A stretch of DNA of 64,000 nt from an uncultured Candidatus Saccharibacteria bacterium (lineage in GTDB: Bacteria; Patescibacteriota; Minisyncoccia; Phycocordibacterales; UBA9973). Position 1 is the stretch's first letter. Every line of letters begins with the position of its first letter. The stretch covers positions 1,788 to 65,787 of the forward strand of contig CAZKPK010000002.1 of the NCBI GenBank assembly GCA_964554645.1, written 5' to 3'. The notes beneath the pieces were generated by a model. The model had not been told where the DNA came from and did no database searches. It saw only the letters and a program-made list of their open reading frames with translations. Made by a program: the position numbers and the translations under genes. Shown piece by piece: positions 15,973-25,302 of the stretch.

Positions 15973-16395
15973 ATGATAATCAAAATCAAGAAACTGAAAG
16001 AGAAGGCAAAACTGCCGAAGTATCATCATCCGGGAGATGTGGGGATGGATTTATATGCGATGGAGACGGTGACGATAAAGCCCGGTGAGCATTATCGTTT
16101 CTGGCACGGCTTTGCGCTGGAATTTCCGGAAGGTTATGGGGCTATTATTATGGATAAAGGCAGTATTTCTAAAGCAGGATTTGCTCATATGGGCGGAGTC
16201 TATGATGCGGGGTATAGAGGCGAATACAATACGCTTTTAGTAAATTTATCGGACAAGAGTTATACTTTTGAAGCGGGTGATAAAGTTTCGCAACTGGTGA
16301 TTATCCCGGTGGTTATTGGAAAGTTAAAAGAGGTTGAAAAATTGAATGCATCTGCTCGCGGTGAGGGAAAGTTTGGAAGCACCGGCAGAAAATAA
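15973..16395 (+). CDS. dut: dUTP diphosphatase
   Basis: A 140-aa protein with the dUTPase motifs (HPGDVGMDLYA, GVYDAGYRGE, SARGEGKFGSTG). Confidence 0.85.
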   Translation: MIIKIKKLKEKAKLPKYHHPGDVGMDLYAMETVTIKPGEHYRFWHGFALEFPEGYGAIIMDKGSISKAGFAHMGGVYDAGYRGEYNTLLVNLSDKSYTFEAGDKVSQLVIIPVVIGKLKEVEKLNASARGEGKFGSTGRK

Positions 16396-16396
16396 T

Positions 16397-18139
16397 ATGC
16401 AAGAAAAAATAAAAAATTTAATCAAGGACGCGCTGAAAAATCTAAATATAGAGATGAGCGATGTTGGCTTGGAACATCCGGAAGATCTGAAAAATGGAGA
16501 TTATTCCACGAATGTGGCGCTGGTTGTCGCTAAAAATGTCAAAATCAGTCCAAAAGCATTGGCGGGAAAAATCGTGACAGAAATTTTGAGGTTAAACCTC
16601 GATAAATATATTGAAAAAGTAGAAGTGGCTGGCGCCGGTTTTATAAATTTCTATCTTTCCCGCAAATTTTTTGCCAGCTCGGTTGAAGAAATTGTCAATC
16701 AGGGAGAAAATGCCGGGAAAAATAATGTTCTAGCTGGCAAAAAAATAATGATTGAATACACCGACCCGAATCCTTTCAAGCCATTTCATATTGGACACTT
16801 AATGACGAACGCTATTGGGGAATCCGTAGCGAGAATTTTAGAGCATTCCGGCGCGGAGGTATCTCGGGCCAATTATCAGGGCGATATCGGTTTGCATGTG
16901 GCCAAGGCCATCTACGGCCTTTTGAAAGATGAAAAATTACAGGACAAGGCAGGCTCTCATATCTTGCAGTCGGCAAATATCGGCCAAGCTTATGCTCAAG
17001 GCGCGGAAGTTTACGAAAACAACAAGAAAGCAAAAAAAGAAATAGATGAAATAAATAAAAAAATTTACGCTAAGAGCGATAAAAAAATAAATGAAATGTA
17101 TGATTGGGGTTTCCAAGCGACGATGAAAGCATTTGAAGATTTATACCAAATTCTCGGCACGAAGTTTGATTTTTATTTTTTGGAAAGCCAAATGGCGCCG
17201 ATCGGGGAGAGAATTGTGAGAGATAATTTGGACAAAATTATAGATTCCAAGGGCAGTAAAATGATTTTTGAAGAATCAGAAGGCGCTATTATATTCAAGG
17301 CTGAAAAATACGATTCCCAACTTCACACCCGAGTCTTTATCACTTCGCAAGGTCTGCCTACATATGAAACCAAGGAATTGGGATTGACCGAGGAGAAATT
17401 CAGAACGGAGCCCAATTTAGATCTTTCCATCATTATTACCGCCAATGAACAGGCGGATTATATGAAAGTGGTTGCCAAAGCTGTTTCCCTGATTTATCCC
17501 GAGCACGGGAAAAAGATGCTTCACCTGACACATGGCATGATGCGCCTGCTGGGAGGAAAAATGAGCTCGAGAAAGGGTAATGTTGTAACCGGAGAATCTC
17601 TGCTTCGCGACACGGTGGCGCTAATAAGAGAAAAAATTAAAGAACGTGACTGGGCTGAAGCGGAAAAAAATAAAATTGCGGAAATTGTCGGTGTGGCGGC
17701 GATAAAATATTCGATTCTCCGTTCAGCATCCGGGAGCGATATTGTCTACAATCTAGAGGAATCAATTTCGACGGAAGGAGATTCCGGCCCGTATCTGCAA
17801 TACTCATTTGCGCGGGCAAAATCCATTTTAGAAAAGGCGCAGAAAGAAAATATCTTGCCGGATCCCCATGTTTTTCCGCCAGCAGTCTTTGAAGTGGAGA
17901 GGCTGTTGTACAAATTTCCGGAAGTTGTTCTGCGTTCCGCGCAAGAATACGAACCGCATTATATCGCAAACTATTTGATTGCAGTCGCTCGCGCCTTCAA
18001 TAGTTTTTATGGCAATATCGTTGTGGTGAACAAAAAAGACAAAACTTCCGCTTACAAAGTAGCCCTGACTTACGCTTTTATCTTCGTGATGAAAACCGGC
18101 CTATCTCTCCTCGGCATTCAAGCGCCGGAAAAAATGTAG
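16397..18139 (+). CDS. argS: arginine--tRNA ligase
   Basis: It has the class I HIGH motif (PFHIGHLMT) and a KMSKS-like motif (GKMSSRKG). Its length and overall pattern match ArgRS. The likely start is the ATG at 16397, just after the dut stop. Confidence 0.75.
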   Translation: MQEKIKNLIKDALKNLNIEMSDVGLEHPEDLKNGDYSTNVALVVAKNVKISPKALAGKIVTEILRLNLDKYIEKVEVAGAGFINFYLSRKFFASSVEEIVNQGENAGKNNVLAGKKIMIEYTDPNPFKPFHIGHLMTNAIGESVARILEHSGAEVSRANYQGDIGLHVAKAIYGLLKDEKLQDKAGSHILQSANIGQAYAQGAEVYENNKKAKKEIDEINKKIYAKSDKKINEMYDWGFQATMKAFEDLYQILGTKFDFYFLESQMAPIGERIVRDNLDKIIDSKGSKMIFEESEGAIIFKAEKYDSQLHTRVFITSQGLPTYETKELGLTEEKFRTEPNLDLSIIITANEQADYMKVVAKAVSLIYPEHGKKMLHLTHGMMRLLGGKMSSRKGNVVTGESLLRDTVALIREKIKERDWAEAEKNKIAEIVGVAAIKYSILRSASGSDIVYNLEESISTEGDSGPYLQYSFARAKSILEKAQKENILPDPHVFPPAVFEVERLLYKFPEVVLRSAQEYEPHYIANYLIAVARAFNSFYGNIVVVNKKDKTSAYKVALTYAFIFVMKTGLSLLGIQAPEKM

Positions 18140-18194: not shown

Positions 18195-19853
18195 ATGACT
18201 CAAAAAGAAGCGTTGAATATTTTAAAAACTGGCGCGAATGTTTTTTTGACCGGCGAGCCGGGAGCGGGGAAGACGCACACCGTCAATAATTTTGTGAATT
18301 ATTTGCGCGCCTGCGATGTGGAGCCAGCGATTACCGCTTCGACTGGTATTGCCGCGACGCATATTGGCGGGATGACGATTCATTCTTGGAGTGGCATCGG
18401 CATTAAAACAAAATTGGATAAATATGATTTAGATAAAATTGCGAGCAGTGAATATATTGTAAGGCGTGTTGCTCGTACGCGGGTCTTGATTATTGATGAG
18501 ATTTCTATGCTCTCTATTAATATGCTCGAGATGGTGGATATAGTCTGTCGAGAAATAAAACAAAGCAGTGAGCCCTTTGGAGGAATTCAGATTATTCTCG
18601 TCGGTGATTTTTTCCAGTTGCCACCGATTATAAAAAGAGATTTTACAGAAGAAAAACAAAACAAACTTCTTGTAGACGTTCTTGTAGACGTCGGACGTCT
18701 ACAAGTGGGGAATTTTGCTTATGATAGCGGGGCCTGGGAGCGAGCGCGAATGGTTACTTGTTATTTGACTGAAAAACATCGGCAAGATGATACTGATTTC
18801 CTCTCGGTGCTGGGAGGCATCCGTTCTAACAATGTTTCGCAGGCGCATCGAAGTTACATTACTGCTCGGCATATTCGCGAGAATCAGACGCCAGAAAATA
18901 TTACTAAACTTTTTTCGCATAATGTGGATGTAAATCGGATAAATAACGTGGAACTTGCGAAATTAAAAAAAGAAATTAAATGTTTCAAAATGTCTGGAAG
19001 TGGAAATGATAAAGTAGTGGAGATACTGAAGAAAGGATGTTTATCGCCGGAGAATTTGGAGCTCAAAATCGGCGCGGTCGTGATGTGCACCAAAAATAAT
19101 CCAAAAGAAAGATTTGTCAATGGCACACTTGGCACGGTGACAGGCTACGAAGAATTTAGCGGACACCCGATTATTAAAACTAAGAATGGACGGAGTCTTG
19201 TAATTGCGCCGATGGATTGGACAGTTGAAGAGAATGGTAAAATTCGCGCGCAAATAACCCAAATTCCGCTTCGCCTCGCGTGGGCGATCACGGTGCACAA
19301 AAGTCAGGGGATGAGTCTGGATGCGGCGGTGATGGATTTGTCGCAAGTGTTTGAATTTGGGCAGGGGTATGTAGCGCTCTCACGCGTGCGCAGACTCTCT
19401 GGATTATATTTGCTTGGTTTCAATGAGCAGGCGCTGAAAGTACATCCAGAAATTCTTAAAAAAGATATTGACTTTAAGAAAAGTTCCGAAGAAACAGCGC
19501 GAGTTTTTGGGGAGATTTTAGAAAATGATCTTCAAAAAATACATAATAATTTTGTATTGGCGTGCGGAGGGAAGGTTTTCCACCTCGACCCGATGGTCAT
19601 CGGGTCACCCCTCAAGAGGGGAATTAAAATGGAAAACACAGAGGGCGCGCCGAGTACGGCGCGCCCAAAAGCATTTGCCGAAATCAGAACAAAACACCCC
19701 AACGCTTATCGAAAATGGATGCCAGAGGAAGAAATGGAAATGGTATCACAATTCAAAAATGGAAAATCTATCAGAAATATTTCTGCGCTTTCTGGTCGAA
19801 AAGTTGGCGGCATACGCGCTCGGCTCGTCAAACTAGGATTAATAGAAAAATAA
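18195..19853 (+). CDS. PIF1/RecD-family ATP-dependent DNA helicase with a C-terminal HTH domain
   Basis: It has the Walker A motif LTGEPGAGKTH and the ILVGDFFQLPP motif, plus a C-terminal helix-turn-helix-like tail. The ORF also contains in-frame GC-rich repeat insertions at 18669-18705 and 19566-19670. Confidence 0.7.
   Translation: MTQKEALNILKTGANVFLTGEPGAGKTHTVNNFVNYLRACDVEPAITASTGIAATHIGGMTIHSWSGIGIKTKLDKYDLDKIASSEYIVRRVARTRVLIIDEISMLSINMLEMVDIVCREIKQSSEPFGGIQIILVGDFFQLPPIIKRDFTEEKQNKLLVDVLVDVGRLQVGNFAYDSGAWERARMVTCYLTEKHRQDDTDFLSVLGGIRSNNVSQAHRSYITARHIRENQTPENITKLFSHNVDVNRINNVELAKLKKEIKCFKMSGSGNDKVVEILKKGCLSPENLELKIGAVVMCTKNNPKERFVNGTLGTVTGYEEFSGHPIIKTKNGRSLVIAPMDWTVEENGKIRAQITQIPLRLAWAITVHKSQGMSLDAAVMDLSQVFEFGQGYVALSRVRRLSGLYLLGFNEQALKVHPEILKKDIDFKKSSEETARVFGEILENDLQKIHNNFVLACGGKVFHLDPMVIGSPLKRGIKMENTEGAPSTARPKAFAEIRTKHPNAYRKWMPEEEMEMVSQFKNGKSIRNISALSGRKVGGIRARLVKLGLIEK
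18669..18705. repeat. GACGTC-type palindromic element inside the helicase CDS, in-frame
   Basis: The unit cttgtagacgtt is followed by the perfect 25-nt palindrome cttgtagacgtcGgacgtctacaag. A related palindrome cluster lies at 58012-58075. Confidence 0.55.
19566..19624 (+). repeat. partial copy (D) of the four-hairpin GC-rich element, in-frame within the helicase CDS
   Basis: cccgatggtcatcggg...cacccctcaagaggggaat matches hairpins 3 and 4 of the elements at 41607, 52756 and 58074. It is followed by a 10-bp GC hairpin (gggcgcgccg-agta-cggcgcgccc). Confidence 0.55.
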
Positions 19854-19992
19854 AATACTAGTTATCCCCATTTGGTTTTGAAAATTACTGGGATATTTTT
19901 TTAACGTCAATGTTCCTAGTTTTTCTAATGCCCTTGCAGGAACCCTTTTAGTCAATCTTGTTTGTTGGTATTTTTTTTGTTATGATTGTGGT

Positions 19993-20409
19993 ATGAAATC
20001 AAAAGAAGCAAAACCGTCTGAGGTAGGAGATAATAAAACAACCCCAGAGGCAAAGTTAACAAAACAAGAAATCTTGGATCTAATTGAAAAAGCATCTCAC
20101 CAAACTTGGATGAGGCAGGCGCATAGGGACAAAGGAACCAACATGGATAAACTTTCACAGGCAGTGTCAGATGGCGATCGCGAAAGGGCGGCAGATGCTT
20201 GGAAAGAGCTAGAGAAAGAAAAACCAAAAACTCGGGCGGAGGCTGTGACTCTGCTGGCTAGAAGGTCTCACGAAATGTGGTTGGCCCATAAAAGAGTGCT
20301 TGTTTCTACAGAAGAATTTGATCTTAATCCAAATGATCATGACCGCGAGCGGGCAGAAGATATCATAAAAGCGCTTGAAGTTCGCGGAGTCTTATCTTAT
20401 GGAGAATAA
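19993..20409 (+). CDS. hypothetical protein (138 aa, charged and helical)
   Basis: The ORF is open but has no recognisable motifs. Its end overlaps the ileS start. Confidence 0.4.
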   Translation: MKSKEAKPSEVGDNKTTPEAKLTKQEILDLIEKASHQTWMRQAHRDKGTNMDKLSQAVSDGDRERAADAWKELEKEKPKTRAEAVTLLARRSHEMWLAHKRVLVSTEEFDLNPNDHDRERAEDIIKALEVRGVLSYGE

Positions 20410-23400
20410 TCAGGATAAAAACAAAAAATCAGACGCAACGTTGCGCGAAGAAAGTGTTTTGGAATTTTGGCGGGAAAATAAAATTTTTGAGAAATCTTTA
20501 AAACAGACAGAAGGGAAAAAAGAATTTATTTTTTTTGAAGGTCCGCCGACAGCGAATGGCAAGCCGGGAATTCATCATCTGGAAGCGCGAGCGTTCAAAG
20601 ACGCTATTCCAAGATATAAAACGATGCAAGGTTTTTACGTCCGTCGCAAGGCCGGGTGGGATACGCACGGGCTAGCGGTAGAAATTCAGACAGAGAAAAA
20701 ACTCGGCCTGAATTCTAAAAAAGCGATTGAAAAATACGGCATCGCCAAGTTCAATCGGGAATGCAAAGAAAATGTTTGGGAATATTTGGATGTTTGGAAT
20801 AAATTTACCGAGCGGATCGGTTTTTGGGTGGATCAGGAGAATCCGTATGTGACATACCGCAATGACTATATTGAATCTGCCTGGAATGTGCTAAAAAAAA
20901 TAAATGACCGGAATTTGCTTTACAAAGATTATAAAGTAGTGCCGTGGTGTCCGAGATGCGGGACCGCTCTTTCCACCCACGAGCTGGTGCAAGGATACGA
21001 GGAGGTGAAAGATTTGTCGGTTTATGTGAAGTTTAAGGTGCGTGGGGGCGGAAATGATGCTTCTGCGGGGTCGCTGTCTCCGTCTGCTGACGGAGCGCTG
21101 CCTCTCGGCTCGTCAGCCTGCGAGACACCCCGACAAAAGCACATTTCCGCCCCCACTTTCGTTCTTGCCTGGACGACGACGCCGTGGACTTTGCCGGGAA
21201 ATGTGGCGCTGGCAGTAGGGAAGGACATTGATTATGTGAAAGTTAAAACTGGAAATGAAATTTACATTTTGGCCAAGGAAAGACTTTCAATACTCACTGA
21301 AGCTTATGAAATTGTTGGAGAAATAAAAGGCAAAGATTTGGTAGGTTTAGAATATGAACCGCTTTTTCCATTTCTGCCTGCCATTATTTCTGAAGCCGAA
21401 AAACCTAAATTAGAAAAAGCTTTTAAAATATATGAAGCGGATTTTGTAAATATACAAGATGGCACAGGGATTGTGCATACGGCGGTAATGTATGGACAAG
21501 ACGATTTTGAACTGGGCGCCAAAGTCGGTTTGCCCAAGCATCACTTGGTTAATCTTGAAGGCAAATTTATAAAAGGCACAGGATTTTTAGAAGGAAGATT
21601 TGTAAAAGAAAAAGACGAAAACGGCAAACCGACTATAGATATAGATATTATCAAATATCTAACGGACAAAAACTTATTTTACAAAAAAGAAAATTATGAA
21701 CATTCCTATCCGCACTGCTGGCGCTGTCACACGGCGCTTATTTATTACGCTCGCGATTCTTGGTATATCAAAATGTCCGACCCGACAATAAAGGAACAGA
21801 TGATAAAAGAGAATAAAGGGATAAATTGGGAGCCGTCATATATTCAAGAAGGGCGTTTCGGCGAATGGCTTCGGGAGATAAAAGACTGGGCAATATCTCG
21901 CGAAAGATATTGGGGGACGCCGCTACCGATATGGGCTTGCGAATCCTGCCAGAAAATCAGCGTCATCGGAAGCATTGCGGAATTGAAAGAAAAAACAAAA
22001 AAGTCCGGCAATACATATTTTGTGATGCGGCATGGGGAAACTACCACCAATTTGAGAAATTTGGTTAGCACGGTAATGAATAGCGGGAGCCATTTGACCG
22101 ATGAAGGAAAAAGAAAGACAAGAGGAATGGGCGAACTTCTGAAGAAAAAAGGTATTGATCTGATTTTTACTTCGCCGTTTAATCGCGGCAGAGAAACGGC
22201 AAAAATAATGCAGGAAATTATAGGTATTGGTGACGAAAATGTTTGTGAAGATAAGCGCTTGGGAGAGATGAATGTAAAAAGTTATGAAGGAAGAACTTGG
22301 GCCGAATATCACAACGACTTTCCGAAAACGCCAGAATATTTTGATAAAGCAAAAAACGGAGATGAATCTTTGAGAGACATAAAAAAAAGAATGATGGATT
22401 TTCTTTTTGAGCTTGAAGAGAAATATCAGAACAAAAAAATTCTCATTATTACTCACGGCGGGCCGACCTGGCTTATGGCCGCGGGGGTGAAAATGTTTGA
22501 TGTGGAAAATACGCTTGCGATGGTTCGCGATAAAGAAAATTTTCATTATCTCAGAAATTCGGAAATACAAAAATTATCATTCACACCTTTTCCTCATGAT
22601 CAATTTGGCGATTTTGACCTGCATCGTCCATATATTGATGAAGTTCCACTTGTTTGTTCCCACTTGACAGGCTCAGGACAGGCCTGTGGCGGAAAATTGA
22701 CGCGCGTTCGCGAAGTGATGGATGTTTGGTTTGATTCCGGTTGTATGCCATTTGCGCAAGATCATTATCCTTTTGACGCCAAAAAAATTCTATATCCGGC
22801 AGATTTTATTTCGGAAGCAATCGATCAGACCCGCGGATGGTTCTACACTTTGCATGCCATCGGAGTGCTGATGGGTCGCGGGAAAGTTTTTAAAAATGTA
22901 ATCTGCCTCGGGCTTCTTTTAGACGCTCAGGGCAAAAAAATGTCCAAATCGCTGGGTAATGTCGTTGATCCTTGGGTGATGATGGATAAATATGGCGTGG
23001 ACACTTTGCGTCTTTGGATGTATTCCGTGAATCAACCGGGCGAATCGAAAAATTTTGACGAGAAAACGATATCTTTGCTTCATCAGCAAGTTTTCGGCTT
23101 GCTTTATAACGTGCTAGCTTTTTACGAACTATATCGAGATAAAGAAAAAGAGATAAATGATCGTCCCAAATCCAAAAATATTTTGGATATTTGGATCTTG
23201 GTCAAATTGGATGAATTAGCAAAATTAATTACCGCGAATCTTGATAATTATAAATTACTTGAACCAACCAGAGCGCTACGAGATTTTATCGGCGATCTTT
23301 CCACCTGGTATCTGCGTCGTTCGCGGGAACGGATCAAAGAAGGAAGCAATGAAGCTAAGCAGACTTTATATTTTGTCCTGAAAACTCTTGCCACAGTCCT

Positions 23401-24022
23401 GGCTCCTTTCGCGCCTTTTGCGGCAGAAGATATTTGGCTGAAATTAAGAAATAAAAATGACGCAGAGAGCGTGCATTTAGTTAAATGGCCAAAAATGCCA
23501 AAGAGTTTCTTTGGCATTTTTGGCAGCAAAGAAAATAAAACTTTGGAAAACATGCAAACAGTCAGGAAAATTGTCACCCTTTGCCTTGAAGCCCGCCAAA
23601 AAGCAGGGATAAAAGTTCGCCAGCCTCTGGCTTCACTTAAATACAAAGTTAAAAACAAAAAATTATCAGGCGAGTATCTTGATCTGATAAAAGATGAGCT
23701 TAACGTGAAAGAAATTATCGAAACAGACTTAATTGAAAATGAAGTTGAACTGGATGTTAAAATCACAGAGGAATTAAAACAGGAAGGAAATTATCGAGAG
23801 CTGGCGCGGGCTTTGCAAGATATGCGCAAAAAACTTGGATTAACTCCGGATGATACAATTTCACTTGTTTTTGAAGCGAATGACGCAGGCAAAAAGTTAA
23901 TTGAAAAATTTGCAACCGATCTTAAAAAAACTGTTTTGGTGTCCAAGATAGAATTTGGAAATAATAATGGCGAAGAAATAAAAATAGATGATTTGGTGTT
24001 TAAAATAAAAATTTATAAGTAG
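20399..24022 (+). CDS. ileS: isoleucine--tRNA ligase with two in-frame insertions: a GC-rich segment and a histidine-phosphatase-like domain
   Basis: It has a HIGH-type motif (PPTANGKPGIHHLEARA), WTTTPWTLPGN, LHRPYIDE, DVWFDSG and KMSKSLGN. The likely start is the ATG at 20399. Residues spanning about 22010-22560 read RHGETT...SPFNRGRETA...ITHGG, which is PGM/His-phosphatase-like. Confidence 0.8.
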   Translation: MENNQDKNKKSDATLREESVLEFWRENKIFEKSLKQTEGKKEFIFFEGPPTANGKPGIHHLEARAFKDAIPRYKTMQGFYVRRKAGWDTHGLAVEIQTEKKLGLNSKKAIEKYGIAKFNRECKENVWEYLDVWNKFTERIGFWVDQENPYVTYRNDYIESAWNVLKKINDRNLLYKDYKVVPWCPRCGTALSTHELVQGYEEVKDLSVYVKFKVRGGGNDASAGSLSPSADGALPLGSSACETPRQKHISAPTFVLAWTTTPWTLPGNVALAVGKDIDYVKVKTGNEIYILAKERLSILTEAYEIVGEIKGKDLVGLEYEPLFPFLPAIISEAEKPKLEKAFKIYEADFVNIQDGTGIVHTAVMYGQDDFELGAKVGLPKHHLVNLEGKFIKGTGFLEGRFVKEKDENGKPTIDIDIIKYLTDKNLFYKKENYEHSYPHCWRCHTALIYYARDSWYIKMSDPTIKEQMIKENKGINWEPSYIQEGRFGEWLREIKDWAISRERYWGTPLPIWACESCQKISVIGSIAELKEKTKKSGNTYFVMRHGETTTNLRNLVSTVMNSGSHLTDEGKRKTRGMGELLKKKGIDLIFTSPFNRGRETAKIMQEIIGIGDENVCEDKRLGEMNVKSYEGRTWAEYHNDFPKTPEYFDKAKNGDESLRDIKKRMMDFLFELEEKYQNKKILIITHGGPTWLMAAGVKMFDVENTLAMVRDKENFHYLRNSEIQKLSFTPFPHDQFGDFDLHRPYIDEVPLVCSHLTGSGQACGGKLTRVREVMDVWFDSGCMPFAQDHYPFDAKKILYPADFISEAIDQTRGWFYTLHAIGVLMGRGKVFKNVICLGLLLDAQGKKMSKSLGNVVDPWVMMDKYGVDTLRLWMYSVNQPGESKNFDEKTISLLHQQVFGLLYNVLAFYELYRDKEKEINDRPKSKNILDIWILVKLDELAKLITANLDNYKLLEPTRALRDFIGDLSTWYLRRSRERIKEGSNEAKQTLYFVLKTLATVLAPFAPFAAEDIWLKLRNKNDAESVHLVKWPKMPKSFFGIFGSKENKTLENMQTVRKIVTLCLEARQKAGIKVRQPLASLKYKVKNKKLSGEYLDLIKDELNVKEIIETDLIENEVELDVKITEELKQEGNYRELARALQDMRKKLGLTPDDTISLVFEANDAGKKLIEKFATDLKKTVLVSKIEFGNNNGEEIKIDDLVFKIKIYK

Positions 24023-24084: not shown

Positions 24085-24645
24085 ATGAAACTCATTGATA
24101 AAGAATCAAATAACGGGAAAATAATTCGCGCTTTAGGTATGGGGGTTGGAGTAACAGTAGCTTTGGCAAACAGAAGGACAAGTTATAAGGTTACTAAATT
24201 ACTGATTAAAGAAATTTTTGGATTAAATAAAAAACCTAAAAATATGGCTGGTTACTTTTTTAAATTAAGAAAACAAAAATTAATTGAGATTAAAAAAGAG
24301 GGAAACTTTTATAAAATTTTCCTCACCGAAAATGGCCGAGAAATCTTTTTGCGATTTAATTATGAAGAATTGAAAATAAAAAATCCAAAAATCTGGGATA
24401 GAAATTTTCGAGTAATTGTCTTTGATATTCCTGAAAAGAAAAGAGCCGCTCGGGATTCACTGCGGGAGAAAATGAAAGAATTGGGATGTGAAAAATTCAA
24501 TGATAGCGTGTGGGTTTATCCTTATCCATGCCAGCAAGAAATTGACTTCATAGCCAACTATTGGGGAATAGGCAAGTATGTTCACTTTATACTGGCCAAA
24601 GATATAACAAACAGAAGTGTTTTGGAAAAGCACTTTAATTTATAA
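24085..24645 (+). CDS. PaaX-like winged-helix transcriptional regulator (paralog 2 of 4)
   Basis: It has the family motif WDRNFRVIVFDIPEKKRAARDSLREKMKELGCEKFNDSVWVYPYP. Confidence 0.6.
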   Translation: MKLIDKESNNGKIIRALGMGVGVTVALANRRTSYKVTKLLIKEIFGLNKKPKNMAGYFFKLRKQKLIEIKKEGNFYKIFLTENGREIFLRFNYEELKIKNPKIWDRNFRVIVFDIPEKKRAARDSLREKMKELGCEKFNDSVWVYPYPCQQEIDFIANYWGIGKYVHFILAKDITNRSVLEKHFNL

Positions 24646-24720: not shown

Positions 24721-25302
24721 ATGCATCACATTTATCACACGGAGGGAATAATCTTGGGGAGCAAAAATTTCGGAGAAGCCGGAAAATATTATCATATTTT
24801 TACCCGTGATTTGGGAATGATAACAGCTGGAGCTCAAGGGGTGCGCAAGATGTCTTCCAAGCTCCGTTTTGTCTTGCAAGATTTTGCCTGTCTTAAAATC
24901 GATTTGGTGCAAGGCAAGAATATCTTTCGGGTAACGAATGCATCCAAGACGGGCATTTTAGAGCAAGTTACTAAACAACCGGAAACTTTTAAAGTTTTTA
25001 CAAACATCACGCGCTTGCTGAAACGTCTGCTGGCTGGTGTTGAGCCGAACGAAACGCTGTTTGTGGATTTGCTCCGCAGCCTATCGGTTTTAGAGAAAGC
25101 CGAAACCAAAGAAAATCTGCGGAATATTGAAGCAATTATTGTTTTGCGCATCTTGGATAATCTGGGGTATATAGGTGAAAATGAAATATTGCAGAGTCTT
25201 ACAAAATCTCCATTTGAAGAGAACCTGATATTTGAAGTTTCAAAAAATAGAAGCAAAGTATTGCGCCAAATCAATAAAGCTCTTAAAGAGACGCATTTAT
25301 AA
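24721..25302 (+). CDS. recO: DNA repair protein RecO (short form without a C-terminal zinc finger)
   Basis: It has the N-terminal OB-fold pattern (EGIILGSKNFGEAGKYYHIFTRDLGMITAGAQGVRK) and a helical C-terminus. It is 193 aa. Confidence 0.6.
   Translation: MHHIYHTEGIILGSKNFGEAGKYYHIFTRDLGMITAGAQGVRKMSSKLRFVLQDFACLKIDLVQGKNIFRVTNASKTGILEQVTKQPETFKVFTNITRLLKRLLAGVEPNETLFVDLLRSLSVLEKAETKENLRNIEAIIVLRILDNLGYIGENEILQSLTKSPFEENLIFEVSKNRSKVLRQINKALKETHL

What the first reader, a model, noticed from the sequence alone, without database searches (positions are those of the whole stretch)
22010..22560. Isoleucyl-tRNA synthetase with an embedded histidine-phosphatase (phosphoglycerate-mutase-like) domain
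The ileS ORF is 1207-1215 aa, which is long for IleRS. Between the post-editing return motif (RYWGTPLPIW...) and the LHRPYIDE...DVWFDSG segment it contains about 185 residues reading TYFVMRHGETT...GIDLIFTSPFNRGRETA...ILIITHGGP. These are the RHGE and catalytic-His signatures of the histidine-phosphatase superfamily (PGM, SixA or cobC-like). I do not know of an IleRS with such an insertion. It could be a moonlighting or regulatory phosphatase, for example acting on a phosphorylated substrate or an Ap4A-type nucleotide.
Basis: partly seen in the sequence, partly recalled or inferred. Interest (0 to 1): 0.65.

Follow-up and report, generated by a model that had tools for sequence, protein, structure and literature searches.

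The report
Phosphatase domain inside isoleucyl-tRNA synthetase
The enzyme that loads isoleucine onto its tRNA in this ultra-small (CPR/Parcubacteria) bacterium really does carry a complete, apparently active phosphatase spliced into its catalytic core; hundreds of related species keep this arrangement, or keep the same phosphatase as the gene next door, and it has only been mentioned once in passing in the papers I could search.

Summary
Confirmed. One uninterrupted ORF (ATG 20399 to stop 24022, 1207 aa) is a type-2 IleRS. It carries a ~207-aa histidine-phosphatase domain (nt 21995-22615; Pfam His_Phos_1, E 6e-30) at the tip of the zinc-knuckle loop of the catalytic domain. It is not an artefact. 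The identical protein is in NCBI (Candidatus Nomurabacteria). All 120 best full-length homologues and at least 297 GTDB species genomes carry the domain, and 186 of 186 fused sequences keep the catalytic Arg-His, Arg, Glu and His.

New here: in the sister clade, IleRS lacks the insert and an orthologous free-standing phosphatase gene lies immediately upstream of ileS (6 of 6 loci: argS-hp-ileS-recO). Fused genomes have argS-ileS[hp]-recO and no second copy (80 of 80 loci). One relocation is enough to explain this. Another lineage has the domain at two other IleRS sites, and a 2013 paper noted PGM-type and Nudix domains in SR1 IleRS.

The domain is a short PhoE/PspA/CobC-like phosphatase. It meets no curated subfamily threshold and lacks the dPGM substrate ligands. 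Its substrate and any coupling to aminoacylation are unknown. I infer a tethered phosphomonoesterase functionally linked to IleRS.

Side find: a mobile, in-frame palindromic mini-element in the editing domain (21042-21156).

The parts
20399..24022 (+). ileS ORF: type-2 isoleucyl-tRNA synthetase with the embedded phosphatase. It is 1207 aa from ATG 20399; an upstream in-frame TTG at 20375 would give 1215 aa.
   Evidence: ORF list. TIGR00392 scores 854.5 bits, above the 621.4 cut-off. It is identical to P0121, an NCBI Candidatus Nomurabacteria protein. AF2 model has pLDDT 86.3; the best PDB match is P. megaterium IleRS2 8C9D, TM 0.81.
20567..20578 (+). Class-I signature motif in its non-canonical GXHH form (G-I-H-H, residues 57-60).
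   Evidence: Read from the sequence. The GXHH variant of IleRS2 is described by Brkic et al. 2023.
21938..21949 (+). First Cys pair (C-E-S-C, residues 514-517) of the zinc-knuckle that brackets the insertion.
   Evidence: It aligns to C461/C464 of T. thermophilus IleRS 1ILE. That these residues are Zn ligands is from my own knowledge (Nureki 1998).
21995..22615 (+). The inserted module (residues 533-739, ~207 aa): a linker with the conserved KKSGN-YF, a complete histidine-phosphatase fold, and a C-terminal strand plus PHD/N linker.
   Evidence: The junction is defined by alignment with the insert-free L084 IleRS. The module aligns end-to-end with free-standing ileS-adjacent phosphatases. AF2 pLDDT is 87-96 across it.
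22019..22510 (+). Pfam His_Phos_1 (PF00300) match.
   Evidence: E 6.3e-30 in the whole protein and 2e-31 for the excised segment.
22028..22036 (+). R544-H545-G546, the RHG motif. His545 is the predicted phospho-accepting nucleophile.
   Evidence: R and H are invariant in 186 of 186 fused IleRS. The roles are assigned by homology to PhoE/dPGM.
22184..22186 (+). Arg596, the second phosphate-pocket arginine (SPFNRGRETA).
   Evidence: Invariant in 186 of 186. It aligns with R62 of E. coli GpmA.
22265..22267 (+). Glu623, the predicted general acid (RLGE).
   Evidence: Glu in 186 of 186 fused proteins and Asp in the free-standing orthologues.
22454..22456 (+). His686, the second catalytic histidine (ITHGG).
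   Evidence: Invariant in 186 of 186. It aligns with H184 of GpmA.
22616..22687 (+). Where IleRS resumes: DLHRPYIDE followed by the second Cys pair (C753...C763) of the zinc-knuckle.
   Evidence: It aligns to 1ILE residues 487-504, including C502/C504, and to 8C8U residues 485-534.
22937..22951 (+). KMSKS loop of IleRS, intact.
   Evidence: Read from the sequence. Invariant in alignment A5.
16346..18139 (+). argS, the upstream synteny anchor of the conserved argS-(hp)-ileS-recO block.
   Evidence: ArgRS HMM hit. The same order is seen in fused and insert-free relatives.
24721..25302 (+). recO, the downstream synteny anchor.
   Evidence: RecO HMM hit. The same order is seen in relatives.

Best explanation
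The gene encodes what is most likely the housekeeping type-2 IleRS of a Nomurabacteria (Parcubacteria/Paceibacteria, CPR) bacterium. A complete short-form histidine phosphatase (branch 1, PhoE/PspA/CobC-like) is inserted in the 4-8-residue loop at the tip of the zinc-knuckle of the catalytic domain. This site corresponds to the gap between K482 and P487 of T. thermophilus IleRS, flanked by the two Cys pairs.

The insert is the orthologue of a free-standing ~190-aa phosphatase gene. In the sister clade that gene lies directly upstream of ileS, sometimes overlapping its start (argS-hp-ileS-recO). One relocation between 'upstream gene' and 'internal domain' accounts for the distribution.

I infer that the domain works as an autonomous phosphomonoesterase. 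His545 would accept the phosphoryl group, Arg544, Arg596 and His686 would form the phosphate pocket, and Glu623 would act as the general acid. It is held in 1:1 stoichiometry on IleRS, which continues to activate Ile and charge tRNAIle (GIHH, KMSKS and the editing TTTPW motif are all intact). I also infer that its substrate is a small phospho-ester, most plausibly nucleotide-like, whose turnover is functionally tied to IleRS rather than to glycolysis.

Shown: identity, boundaries, intact catalytic residues, purifying selection, orthology with the operon partner, and recurrence of the phosphatase-IleRS association. Inferred: enzymatic activity, class of substrate, and functional coupling.
For: Identity and intactness:
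- Pfam and NCBIfam hits.
- A PDB profile search puts PhoE 1EBB/1H2E first at E 8e-31, then PspA and CobC.
- AF2 gives pLDDT 87-96 over the insert, and Foldseek matches short His_Phos phosphatases.
- The catalytic R, H, R, E and H are kept in 186 of 186 fused proteins.
- Among 66 fused proteins, the insert has 43% mean pairwise identity against 55% for the essential IleRS core.

Not an artefact, and widespread:
- All 120 top full-length homologues carry PF00300.
- At least 297 GTDB species genomes have it, and it lies in one uninterrupted ORF in about 70 of 80 loci.

Linkage to IleRS:
- 6 of 6 insert-free relatives have a His_Phos gene immediately upstream of ileS.
- 80 of 80 fused loci have no second His_Phos within about 6 kb, and argS-ileS-recO is kept in most of them.
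- The free-standing proteins align end-to-end with the insert.
- The IleRS tree and the phosphatase tree both split into the same two clans.

Independent recurrence:
- P0338 (1419 aa, six cluster members all 1419 aa long, on different contigs) has two His_Phos domains at two other IleRS sites.
- Tandem copies, 2 to 4, occur at the same site.
- SR1 IleRS carries Nudix plus two PGM domains (PMC3812714).

Phosphatase-type rather than mutase-type:
- The dPGM ligand positions Y92, K100, R116, R117 and N186 are not conserved, as in PhoE.
- The dPGM HMMs score far below their cut-offs.
Against: - No biochemical data exist and no substrate can be named. No IleRS-specific phosphorylated metabolite is known to me.
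- CPR gene order is generally conserved and operons mix unrelated functions. Adjacency followed by fusion could therefore reflect co-expression only.
- A paralogue derived from the insert (P0031) sits in a NeuB/NeuC/NeuA sugar cluster, which suggests generic phosphatase chemistry.
I could not test whether the phosphatase pocket faces the synthetic site or the tRNA path.
- The direction of relocation is unresolved: the NJ tree has a single distant outgroup.
- Only 64 kb of the genome is visible, so a second, insert-free IleRS elsewhere cannot be excluded.
Confidence: 0.55

Rival explanations
1. Metabolic hitch-hiker. The domain is an ordinary housekeeping small-molecule phosphatase, or the lineage's divergent phosphoglycerate mutase. 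Its gene happened to lie in the argS-ileS operon and was later swallowed by ileS. The fusion would give only co-expression in a promoter-poor, reduced genome, with no mechanistic link to aminoacylation.
For: - The closest characterised relatives are small-molecule enzymes: PhoE, phosphoserine phosphatase, CobC, glucosyl-3-phosphoglycerate phosphatase and the short S. pombe dPGM.
- MetaClust labels a family member K15634 (gpmB).
- PGM is reported as patchy or undetected in several Parcubacteria clades (Jaffe 2020, PMC7304191).
- The window encodes PGK, so lower glycolysis is present.
- The P0031 paralogue was recruited into a sugar cluster.
- IleRS in these lineages also tolerates other unrelated inserts: HD, GNAT, a Y1 transposase and a palindromic element.
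Against: - The dPGM substrate-ligand residues and the C-terminal tail are absent.
- All dPGM, CobC and PspA curated models score far below cut-off.
- The easy route from an upstream gene would be an N-terminal fusion. Instead the domain sits in an internal loop of the catalytic domain.
- The same family-pair association arose again at two other internal IleRS sites in an unrelated lineage, and in SR1.
- Exactly one copy is kept per locus, always with ileS.
Confidence: 0.27
2. Macromolecular phosphatase. The domain would dephosphorylate tRNAIle (for example a 2'/3'-phosphate or a pyrophosphorylated CCA end left by nucleases or toxins), or would dephosphorylate IleRS or a partner protein after attack by a Hip-like kinase toxin. 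That would make it a built-in repair or immunity module.
For: - The insertion site is in the connective-polypeptide region on the active-site face of the Rossmann fold (mapping; the location relative to tRNA is from my own knowledge and was not measured).
- Other phosphohydrolase add-ons occur on IleRS in related lineages: an HD C-terminal extension and Nudix in SR1.
- From my own knowledge, the superfamily includes protein phosphatases (SixA, PGAM5, Sts).
- From my own knowledge, tRNA 3'-end-modifying toxins and aaRS-phosphorylating toxins exist.
Against: - No member of this superfamily is known to me as an RNA-end phosphatase.
- tRNA-end repair would be needed by all synthetases, not only IleRS.
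- The SixA model scores below its cut-off (34.6 against 74.5 bits).
- The closest structures are small-molecule enzymes.
- Nothing here tests this reading directly.
Confidence: 0.12
3. Non-catalytic module. The fold is retained only as a structural spacer or tRNA-binding surface, and phosphatase chemistry is irrelevant.
For: From my own knowledge, inserted domains in synthetases often end up as RNA-binding or structural elements. The insert evolves somewhat faster than the core.
Against: All five catalytic residues are invariant in 186 of 186 sequences across deep divergence. They are also kept in the free-standing orthologues and in the independent P0338 insertions.
Confidence: 0.04
4. Artefact. 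Two genes would have been fused by mis-assembly or by a sequencing frameshift.
For: Some database fragments of the family look split (for example P0004, P0006, P0033 and the L086 locus). These are frameshifted calls in individual assemblies.
Against: - There is one clean ORF with IleRS sequence on both sides of the insert.
- The identical protein is seen on two contigs.
- Hundreds of independent assemblies show the same architecture.
Confidence: 0.01

Closest known systems
[quoted passage not shown] 2013, mBio, PMC3812714)
   Same: It is a CPR IleRS interrupted by PGM-type (histidine-phosphatase) domains. This is the only mention I found in the searchable literature.
   Different: - The SR1 protein has two PGM domains plus a Nudix domain. 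The window protein has one His_Phos domain and no Nudix.
- It comes from a different CPR lineage.
- The paper gives one sentence with no sites, residues, distribution or function.
- It does not comment on the OD1 genome from the same study (RAAC4_OD1_1), whose IleRS carries the insert described here (L005).
PhoE (YhfR) broad-specificity phosphatase of Geobacillus stearothermophilus (PDB 1EBB, 1H2E)
   Same: It is the best sequence-profile match (E 8e-31). It has the same short ~200-aa form, the same catalytic set, and the same lack of dPGM substrate ligands.
   Different: PhoE is a free-standing enzyme. Identity is only about 21-30%. The insert family replaces the usual 'qGw.D' loop after RHG and has its own N-x-Y-F lead-in and HG(D/G)P.W motif.
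Type-2 IleRS (IleRS2), e.g. Priestia megaterium 8C8U/8C8V/8C9D and T. thermophilus 1ILE, including the GXHH hyper-resistant variant (Brkic et al. 2023)
   Same: The host enzyme is an IleRS2. Full-model Foldseek gives TM 0.81 at 32% identity. It has the type-2 C-terminal domains and a GIHH signature motif.
   Different: The solved enzymes have a 4-8-residue loop where this protein has 207 residues. The two IleRS-focused papers I checked (Brkic et al. 2023 and the 2026 C-terminal-remodelling preprint) do not mention a phosphatase or CPR.
Bifunctional RNase H / acid phosphatase (Rv2228c / RnhC type; NCBIfam NF005567)
   Same: It is a nucleic-acid enzyme fused to a CobC/PhoE-like histidine phosphatase. 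It is the second-best NCBIfam hit of the insert (70 bits).
   Different: It is an end-to-end fusion, not an internal insertion. The score is far below the 326-bit cut-off, and the partner enzyme is different.
NCBIfam NF040702, 'isoleucine--tRNA ligase, N-acetyltransferase domain-containing'
   Same: It is a curated example showing that IleRS can carry an extra catalytic domain.
   Different: The extra domain is a GNAT, not a phosphatase. The window protein scores 302.6 bits against a cut-off of 1999.

Membership tests
Isoleucyl-tRNA synthetase (TIGR00392 ileS), type 2 | Whole-protein score above the curated equivalog cut-off | tested here: met
   854.5 bits against 621.4.
Isoleucyl-tRNA synthetase (TIGR00392 ileS), type 2 | Class-I signature motifs HIGH and KMSKS | tested here: met
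   KMSKS is present at residues 847-851. HIGH is present as the GXHH variant (GIHH, residues 57-60), which is documented as functional only in IleRS2.
Isoleucyl-tRNA synthetase (TIGR00392 ileS), type 2 | CP1 editing domain with the TTTPW threonine-rich motif | tested here: met
   WTTTPWTLPGN is present and invariant in alignment A5.
Isoleucyl-tRNA synthetase (TIGR00392 ileS), type 2 | Type-2 fold and C-terminal domains | tested here: met
   Foldseek best hits are IleRS2 8C9D/8C8V (TM 0.81). Pfam finds Anticodon_1 plus DUF5915.
Isoleucyl-tRNA synthetase (TIGR00392 ileS), type 2 | Aminoacylation of tRNAIle | not testable with these tools
   Needs an enzyme assay.
Histidine phosphatase superfamily, branch 1 (PF00300) | Pfam gathering threshold | tested here: met
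   104.7 bits in the whole protein and 109.6 bits for the insert alone, against 21.7.
Histidine phosphatase superfamily, branch 1 (PF00300) | Catalytic core: the Arg-His of RHG, a second Arg, a second His and an acidic proton donor | tested here: met
   R544, H545, R596, E623 and H686 are present, and are invariant in 186 of 186 fused homologues.
Histidine phosphatase superfamily, branch 1 (PF00300) | alpha/beta fold of the superfamily | tested here: met
   The AF2 model (pLDDT 86) matches Rv2419c, PspA, PhoE, S. pombe PGM and CobC at E 1e-11 to 1e-13 with TM about 0.75.
Histidine phosphatase superfamily, branch 1 (PF00300) | Phosphatase activity through a phospho-histidine intermediate | not testable with these tools
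   Needs biochemistry.
Cofactor-dependent phosphoglycerate mutase (dPGM) | Curated HMM cut-offs (TIGR01258, NF010713, NF038349) | tested here: not met
   25.2 against 81.7; 24.7 against 305; 67.5 against 225 bits.
Cofactor-dependent phosphoglycerate mutase (dPGM) | Substrate-ligand residues (E. coli GpmA Y92, K100, R116, R117, N186) and the C-terminal tail | tested here: not met
   These positions are not conserved in the inserted or the adjacent family members, as in PhoE, and there is no tail.
Alpha-ribazole phosphatase CobC (TIGR03162) | Equivalog cut-off | tested here: not met
   76.8 against 162.9 bits.
Phosphoserine phosphatase PspA (NF045917 / NF009994) | Equivalog cut-off | tested here: not met
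   51.7 against 350 and 52.8 against 277 bits.
Phosphohistidine phosphatase SixA (TIGR00249) | Equivalog cut-off | tested here: not met
   34.6 against 74.5 bits, and only the N-terminal third aligns.
SR1-type interrupted IleRS (Kantor 2013) | IleRS interrupted by PGM-type domain(s) | tested here: met
   One His_Phos domain lies inside the catalytic domain.
SR1-type interrupted IleRS (Kantor 2013) | A Nudix domain and a second PGM domain | tested here: not met
   Pfam finds no Nudix and only one His_Phos stretch.
Mupirocin-resistance IleRS MupA/MupB (NF000257/8); ileS_w_GNAT (NF040702) | Exception-model cut-offs | tested here: not met
   760 and 753 against 1900; 302.6 against 1999 bits.

The most novel reading that the evidence does not exclude
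The phosphatase is mechanistically integrated with aminoacylation. The idea is that IleRS in these bacteria, and in the other lineages that fused or linked the same two families independently, needs a phosphoester hydrolysis step at or near its active site. Candidate steps are clearing a nucleotide by-product, clearing an aminoacyl-nucleotide-type inhibitor, or removing a blocking phosphate from the tRNAIle acceptor end. That would make this a previously unrecognised class of synthetase-resident 'housecleaning, repair or immunity' activity, with the HD, Nudix and GNAT add-ons as variations on the same theme.
Probability: 0.25. Interest if true: 0.85.

Novelty: new variant of a known kind. Interest (0 to 1): 0.62.

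Why it matters
Aminoacyl-tRNA synthetases with extra domains are known. A catalytically intact phosphatase placed inside the catalytic domain of an essential synthetase is unusual, and here it is conserved across a class-level bacterial lineage.

Three facts together give a classic Rosetta-stone signal that IleRS and this phosphatase do something together:
- the orthologue in the sister clade is the gene immediately upstream of ileS;
- the two arrangements are mutually exclusive;
- the same family pair fused again at other sites in other lineages.

No such partnership is described in the literature I could search, so there is a concrete, cheap biochemical question to answer. If instead the domain is the 'missing' PGM or a general phosphatase, that would correct metabolic reconstructions of Parcubacteria, because annotation pipelines that give each protein a single functional label could overlook an enzyme hidden inside IleRS.

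Tried and rejected
- **Assembly or frameshift artefact:** rejected.
- **Recent foreign insertion:** there is no composition break, and the insert co-diverges with IleRS.
- **Short database hits with PF00133+PF00300 on long contigs (P0004, P0006, P0033, P0038/L086):** I considered these as possible natural split genes. Their ends read as frameshift garbage, or the locus is fragmented, so they are sequencing-error calls.
- **Hits of about 900 aa with the domain at about residue 270:** I considered these as possibly editing-domain-less IleRS. They are N-terminally truncated partials.
- **Assignment to a specific phosphatase subfamily (CobC, PspA, dPGM, SixA, GpgP):** no curated model reaches its cut-off, and Foldseek hits are all equally distant at 18-24% identity.
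- **HD extension of relatives as a YqeK-, SpoT- or YfbR-type enzyme:** only generic HD/HDIG signals were found.
- **Model coordinates:** not exposed, so distances between the phosphatase pocket and the synthetic site, editing site or tRNA path could not be measured.
- **Literature searches for IleRS plus histidine phosphatase/PGM, or aaRS plus CPR insertions:** nothing found apart from Kantor 2013.
Full report
**Observation.** The window contains one uninterrupted ORF on the + strand, 20375..24022. It is 1215 aa from a TTG. The protein deposited in NCBI (P0121, 'class I tRNA ligase family protein [Candidatus Nomurabacteria bacterium]', 100% identical, seen on two contigs, the longer 73,935 bp) starts at ATG 20399 and has 1207 aa. 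Pfam finds tRNA-synt_1 (E 1e-117), His_Phos_1 at ORF residues 549-712 (E 6e-30; 2e-31 for the excised segment), Anticodon_1 and DUF5915. NCBIfam TIGR00392 (ileS) scores 854.5 bits against a cut-off of 621.4. GC content (0.37-0.45) does not break at the junctions.

**Anatomy.** The exact boundaries come from a close homologue without the insert, the L084 IleRS (895 aa; 52% and 46% identical on the two sides). Its sequence reads '...CIGSKERLKIK|DLHRPFVDKV...', where the window protein has 207 extra residues. In P0121 numbering the insert is residues 533-739, i.e. nt 21995-22615. Against solved structures, the site falls between K482 and P487 of T. thermophilus IleRS (1ILE) and between about 476 and 485 of P. 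megaterium IleRS2. This is a 4-8-residue loop lying between the Cys pairs C461/C464 and C502/C504. In the window protein these pairs are C514/C517 (CESC) and C753/C763. That they bind zinc is from my own knowledge (Nureki et al. 1998).

The host enzyme keeps KMSKS (847-851), the editing-domain TTTPW motif and the type-2 C-terminal domains. Its 'HIGH' motif is GIHH, the GXHH variant that Brkic et al. describe as functional only in IleRS2 and as conferring mupirocin hyper-resistance. An AlphaFold2 model of residues 8-1207, built on a 70-sequence alignment, has mean pLDDT 86.3 and pTM 0.78, with pLDDT 87-96 across the insert. Its best PDB matches are P. megaterium IleRS2 structures (TM 0.81, 32% identity). 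The insert is therefore a confidently folded, discrete excursion from the catalytic domain.

**Not an artefact, and widespread.**
- A search with the junction region found about 45 clusters that combine PF00133 and PF00300, all from Patescibacteria.
- A search with the full protein returned 120 of 120 top hits (62-83% BLASTP identity) carrying PF00300.
The best 80 are Nomura-, Kaiser-, Adler-, Zambryski-, Yonath- and Wolfebacteria, plus the complete genome RAAC4_OD1_1 and others.
- In about 70 of those 80, the domain lies in one uninterrupted 1100-1225 aa ORF that contains KMSKS.
- Apparent 'split' versions in some assemblies are frameshifted calls.

**The domain looks active.** In 186 distinct fused IleRS sequences, the RHG Arg and His, the second Arg, the acidic Glu and the second His are present in 186 of 186. 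Among 66 fused proteins, mean pairwise identity is 43% in the insert against 55% in the IleRS core. The insert is thus under purifying selection not much weaker than that on an essential enzyme.

**What kind of histidine phosphatase it is.** A profile of the insert family hits PhoE of G. stearothermophilus best (1EBB/1H2E, E 8e-31), followed by PspA-type phosphoserine phosphatase and CobC. A model of the insert plus flanks (pLDDT 86) matches the short ~200-aa members of the superfamily: Rv2419c glucosyl-3-phosphoglycerate phosphatase, PspA, S. pombe monomeric PGM, PhoE, a riboflavin-pathway phosphatase and CobC. All match at similar, distant levels (E 1e-11 to 1e-13, 18-24% identity). No curated NCBIfam equivalog cut-off is reached:
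- CobC: 76.8 against 162.9 bits
- archaeal dPGM: 67.5 against 225
- PspA: 51.7 against 350
- SixA: 34.6 against 74.5
- GpmA: 24.7 against 305

The catalytic R10, H11, R62, E89 and H184 are conserved, but the dPGM substrate ligands Y92, K100, R116, R117 and N186 are not, exactly as in PhoE. The dPGM-specific loop and C-terminal tail are also absent. The domain is therefore a distinct subfamily of the phosphatase type rather than the mutase type.

**The key new evidence: linkage to ileS in the sister clade.** A free-standing 186-aa His_Phos protein (P0049), one of the closest stand-alone relatives of the insert, is encoded immediately upstream of an insert-free ileS, overlapping its start by 4 bp. 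A small ORF and recO follow it, and argS precedes it (L084/L085). Searching with that IleRS shows a large clade of insert-free Paceibacteria IleRS (885-1013 aa; Nealsonbacteria, 'Pacebacteria' and others). Every context I looked up has a 180-200-aa His_Phos gene directly upstream of ileS, in the order smpB<-, argS, hp, ileS, (small ORF), recO. These are P0389, P0391, P0423 and P0446, plus P0049 and P0054, giving 6 of 6. In one of them a reverse-transcriptase element is wedged between hp and ileS.

The free-standing proteins align end-to-end with the insert. The alignment includes the N-x-Y-F lead-in to the RHG strand and the C-terminal strand. The acid residue is Asp instead of Glu.

Conversely, in the 80 fused loci most retain argS -> ileS[hp] -> recO, and none has a second His_Phos within about 6 kb. 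The window has argS at 16346-18139 and recO at 24721-25302. So there is exactly one copy per locus, either just before ileS or inside it.

A neighbour-joining tree of 881 core IleRS columns puts all insert-free sequences in one clan and all fused sequences in the complement. The phosphatase tree shows the matching split. A single relocation therefore suffices. Its direction is unresolved, because the only outgroup is distant and roots inside the fused group.

**Recurrence elsewhere.**
- P0338 is a 1419-aa IleRS2 with a canonical HYGH motif. Its cluster has six members, all 1419 aa long, on contigs up to 1.06 Mb, and its neighbourhood (DAHP synthase, PurA, an SLH protein) is unlike CPR. It has no insert at the zinc-knuckle. 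Instead it has two catalytically intact His_Phos domains at two other sites: after DCWFESGSMPYA, and at the start of the anticodon-binding domain.
- Some Paceibacteria IleRS have 2-4 tandem copies at the zinc-knuckle site (P0326, P0248).
- Some add a ~200-aa HD-domain C-terminal extension (P0202, P0170, P0222, P0235).
- One odd protein combines His_Phos with an IS200-like Y1 transposase domain and a GNAT (P0365).
- The only literature mention I found is one sentence in Kantor et al. 2013. [quoted passage not shown] That paper does not remark on its own OD1 genome, whose IleRS has the insert (L005).
- Two papers by IleRS specialists do not mention it, and the other searches were empty.

**How it most likely works.**
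- Shown: a complete PhoE-like phosphatase with an intact active site is inserted in a surface loop of the IleRS catalytic domain, is orthologous to the operon partner of ileS in the sister clade, and has been kept under selection in hundreds of species.
- Inferred: it is an autonomous phosphomonoesterase. His545 would be the nucleophile, Arg544, Arg596 and His686 the phosphate pocket, and Glu623 the acid. It is tethered 1:1 to a fully functional IleRS.
- I also infer that its function is tied to IleRS, because the same two families are linked four ways: as neighbouring genes, and at three different insertion sites in at least two or three lineages. The trivial evolutionary route from an upstream gene would have been an N-terminal fusion, not placement in the catalytic domain.
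- I favour a small, probably nucleotide-like phospho-ester as substrate, because the closest relatives are small-molecule enzymes and the other add-ons on the same scaffold (HD, Nudix) are nucleotide phosphohydrolases. This last step is the weakest.
- Overall confidence in this reading is 0.55.

**Rivals.**
- (i) A hitch-hiking metabolic enzyme with no mechanistic link, 0.27. This includes the possibility that it is the divergent 'missing' PGM of some Parcubacteria (Jaffe 2020 reports PGM undetected in several shallow clades; the window encodes PGK). The absent dPGM ligands argue against the mutase version.
- (ii) A macromolecular phosphatase acting on the tRNAIle 3' end or on phospho-IleRS, 0.12. 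This is attractive but untested, and it does not explain why only IleRS would need it.
- (iii) A non-catalytic module, 0.04. The invariant catalytic residues contradict it.
- (iv) An artefact, 0.01. This is refuted.

**Novelty and interest.** The architecture sits in public databases under generic names and was noted once in passing for another CPR lineage, so it is not unknown. I found no published description of its site, distribution, catalytic conservation, orthology to an ileS-adjacent gene, mutually exclusive arrangement or independent recurrences. I class it as a new variant of a known kind (a synthetase with an accessory catalytic domain) and score interest at 0.62. An aaRS specialist would be surprised by an active phosphatase conserved inside the IleRS catalytic domain, and the question of what it does is directly testable.

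**Side observation.** The same ORF contains a second, unrelated insert at 21042-21156.
- It is GC-rich, has perfect 15-nt terminal inverted repeats, and folds as one long hairpin (-75.1 kcal/mol, z = -7.8).
- It is translated in frame as a disordered 33-aa loop just before the editing TTTPW motif, with pLDDT below 50.
- Its core appears nearly identical at the nucleotide level (by eye) in ileS of genomes whose IleRS is only 66-70% identical, with one compensatory stem change.
- A 37-nt core occurs in 44 metagenome contigs. Only 3 of them are in ileS. The rest are mostly inside other long ORFs, on either strand: tgt-like, UvrD-like, tsaD-like, LeuRS-like, deformylase-like and cysteine-desulfurase-like genes.
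- It behaves like the Rickettsia palindromic elements (my own knowledge). I found no report of such elements in CPR, although that search was only loose.

**Limits.**
- There is no biochemistry.
- Two fold libraries were unavailable.
- The trees are neighbour-joining only.
- Only 64 kb of this genome is visible, so a second IleRS or a separate PGM elsewhere cannot be excluded.

Noticed in passing
window 21042-21156 (+), inside ileS; also L095:10667-10730, L096:10736-10799, L097-L140: This is an in-frame, GC-rich palindromic mini-element. It has perfect 15-nt terminal inverted repeats (GTGGGGGCGGAAATG / CATTTCCGCCCCCAC) and folds as a hairpin of -75 kcal/mol (z = -7.8). It is translated as a disordered ~33-aa loop before the editing TTTPW motif. 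Its core appears nearly identical at the DNA level (by eye) in distant genomes, with one compensatory stem change. The same 37-nt core sits in 44 metagenome contigs, mostly inside other ORFs (tgt-, uvrD-, tsaD-, leuS-, def- and iscS-like genes) on either strand. It resembles the Rickettsia palindromic elements. There is no Rfam match, and I found no CPR report.
   Followed up: partly
window 20567-20578: The class-I HIGH motif is G-I-H-H. This is the GXHH variant that Brkic et al. 2023 link to mupirocin hyper-resistance in IleRS2. The insert-free sister IleRS (L084) shares it.
   Followed up: partly
P0202, P0170, P0222, P0235, P0237 (relatives); probably also L052, L055, L065: Some fused IleRS (1330-1367 aa) carry an additional ~200-aa HD-domain phosphohydrolase at the C-terminus, after or within the last DUF5915 domain. 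It cannot be assigned to any HD subfamily.
   Followed up: partly
P0338 / L094:5001-9260: This is a 1419-aa canonical-HYGH IleRS2 from an unidentified bacterium that does not look like CPR (contigs up to 1.06 Mb). It has two intact His_Phos domains at two other insertion sites, which indicates independent fusions. P0326 and P0248 have 2 and 4 tandem copies at the zinc-knuckle site.
   Followed up: partly
P0365 (JGI, 11 kb contig): This is an IleRS-like protein with an IS200-like Y1 transposase domain in the editing region and His_Phos at the zinc-knuckle site. A C-terminal GNAT replaces the KMSKS and anticodon-binding parts. It may be a degenerate paralogue or a chimera.
   Followed up: no
L081:6001-6870 (P0031): This is a 289-aa stand-alone protein made of the insert plus remnants of the flanking IleRS zinc-knuckle sequence. 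It sits in a NeuB/NeuC/NeuA-type sugar cluster. It appears to be a copy of the ileS insert region recruited elsewhere.
   Followed up: partly
window 18195-20409: A PIF1/RecD-like helicase ORF (552 aa) and a 138-aa ORF of unknown function (19993-20409, overlapping the ileS start region) lie between argS and ileS. In many relatives argS abuts ileS. L095 has a PIF1-like gene in the same place.
   Followed up: no
L087:5659-8739, L088:3368-6457: A reverse-transcriptase (RVT_1) element with several small ORFs is wedged between the free-standing phosphatase gene and ileS in one insert-free lineage.
   Followed up: no
window 21923-22570 (-): A 215-aa antisense ORF overlaps the phosphatase insert. No evidence supports it as a gene. 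It is most likely a shadow ORF of the purine-rich coding strand.
   Followed up: no
window 24085-24645: The slot between ileS and recO is variable. Here it holds a 186-aa PaaX-like ORF. Insert-free relatives have a 97-134-aa unknown ORF there, L095 has a metallo-beta-lactamase-fold protein, and L096 has a 131-aa unknown ORF.
   Followed up: no
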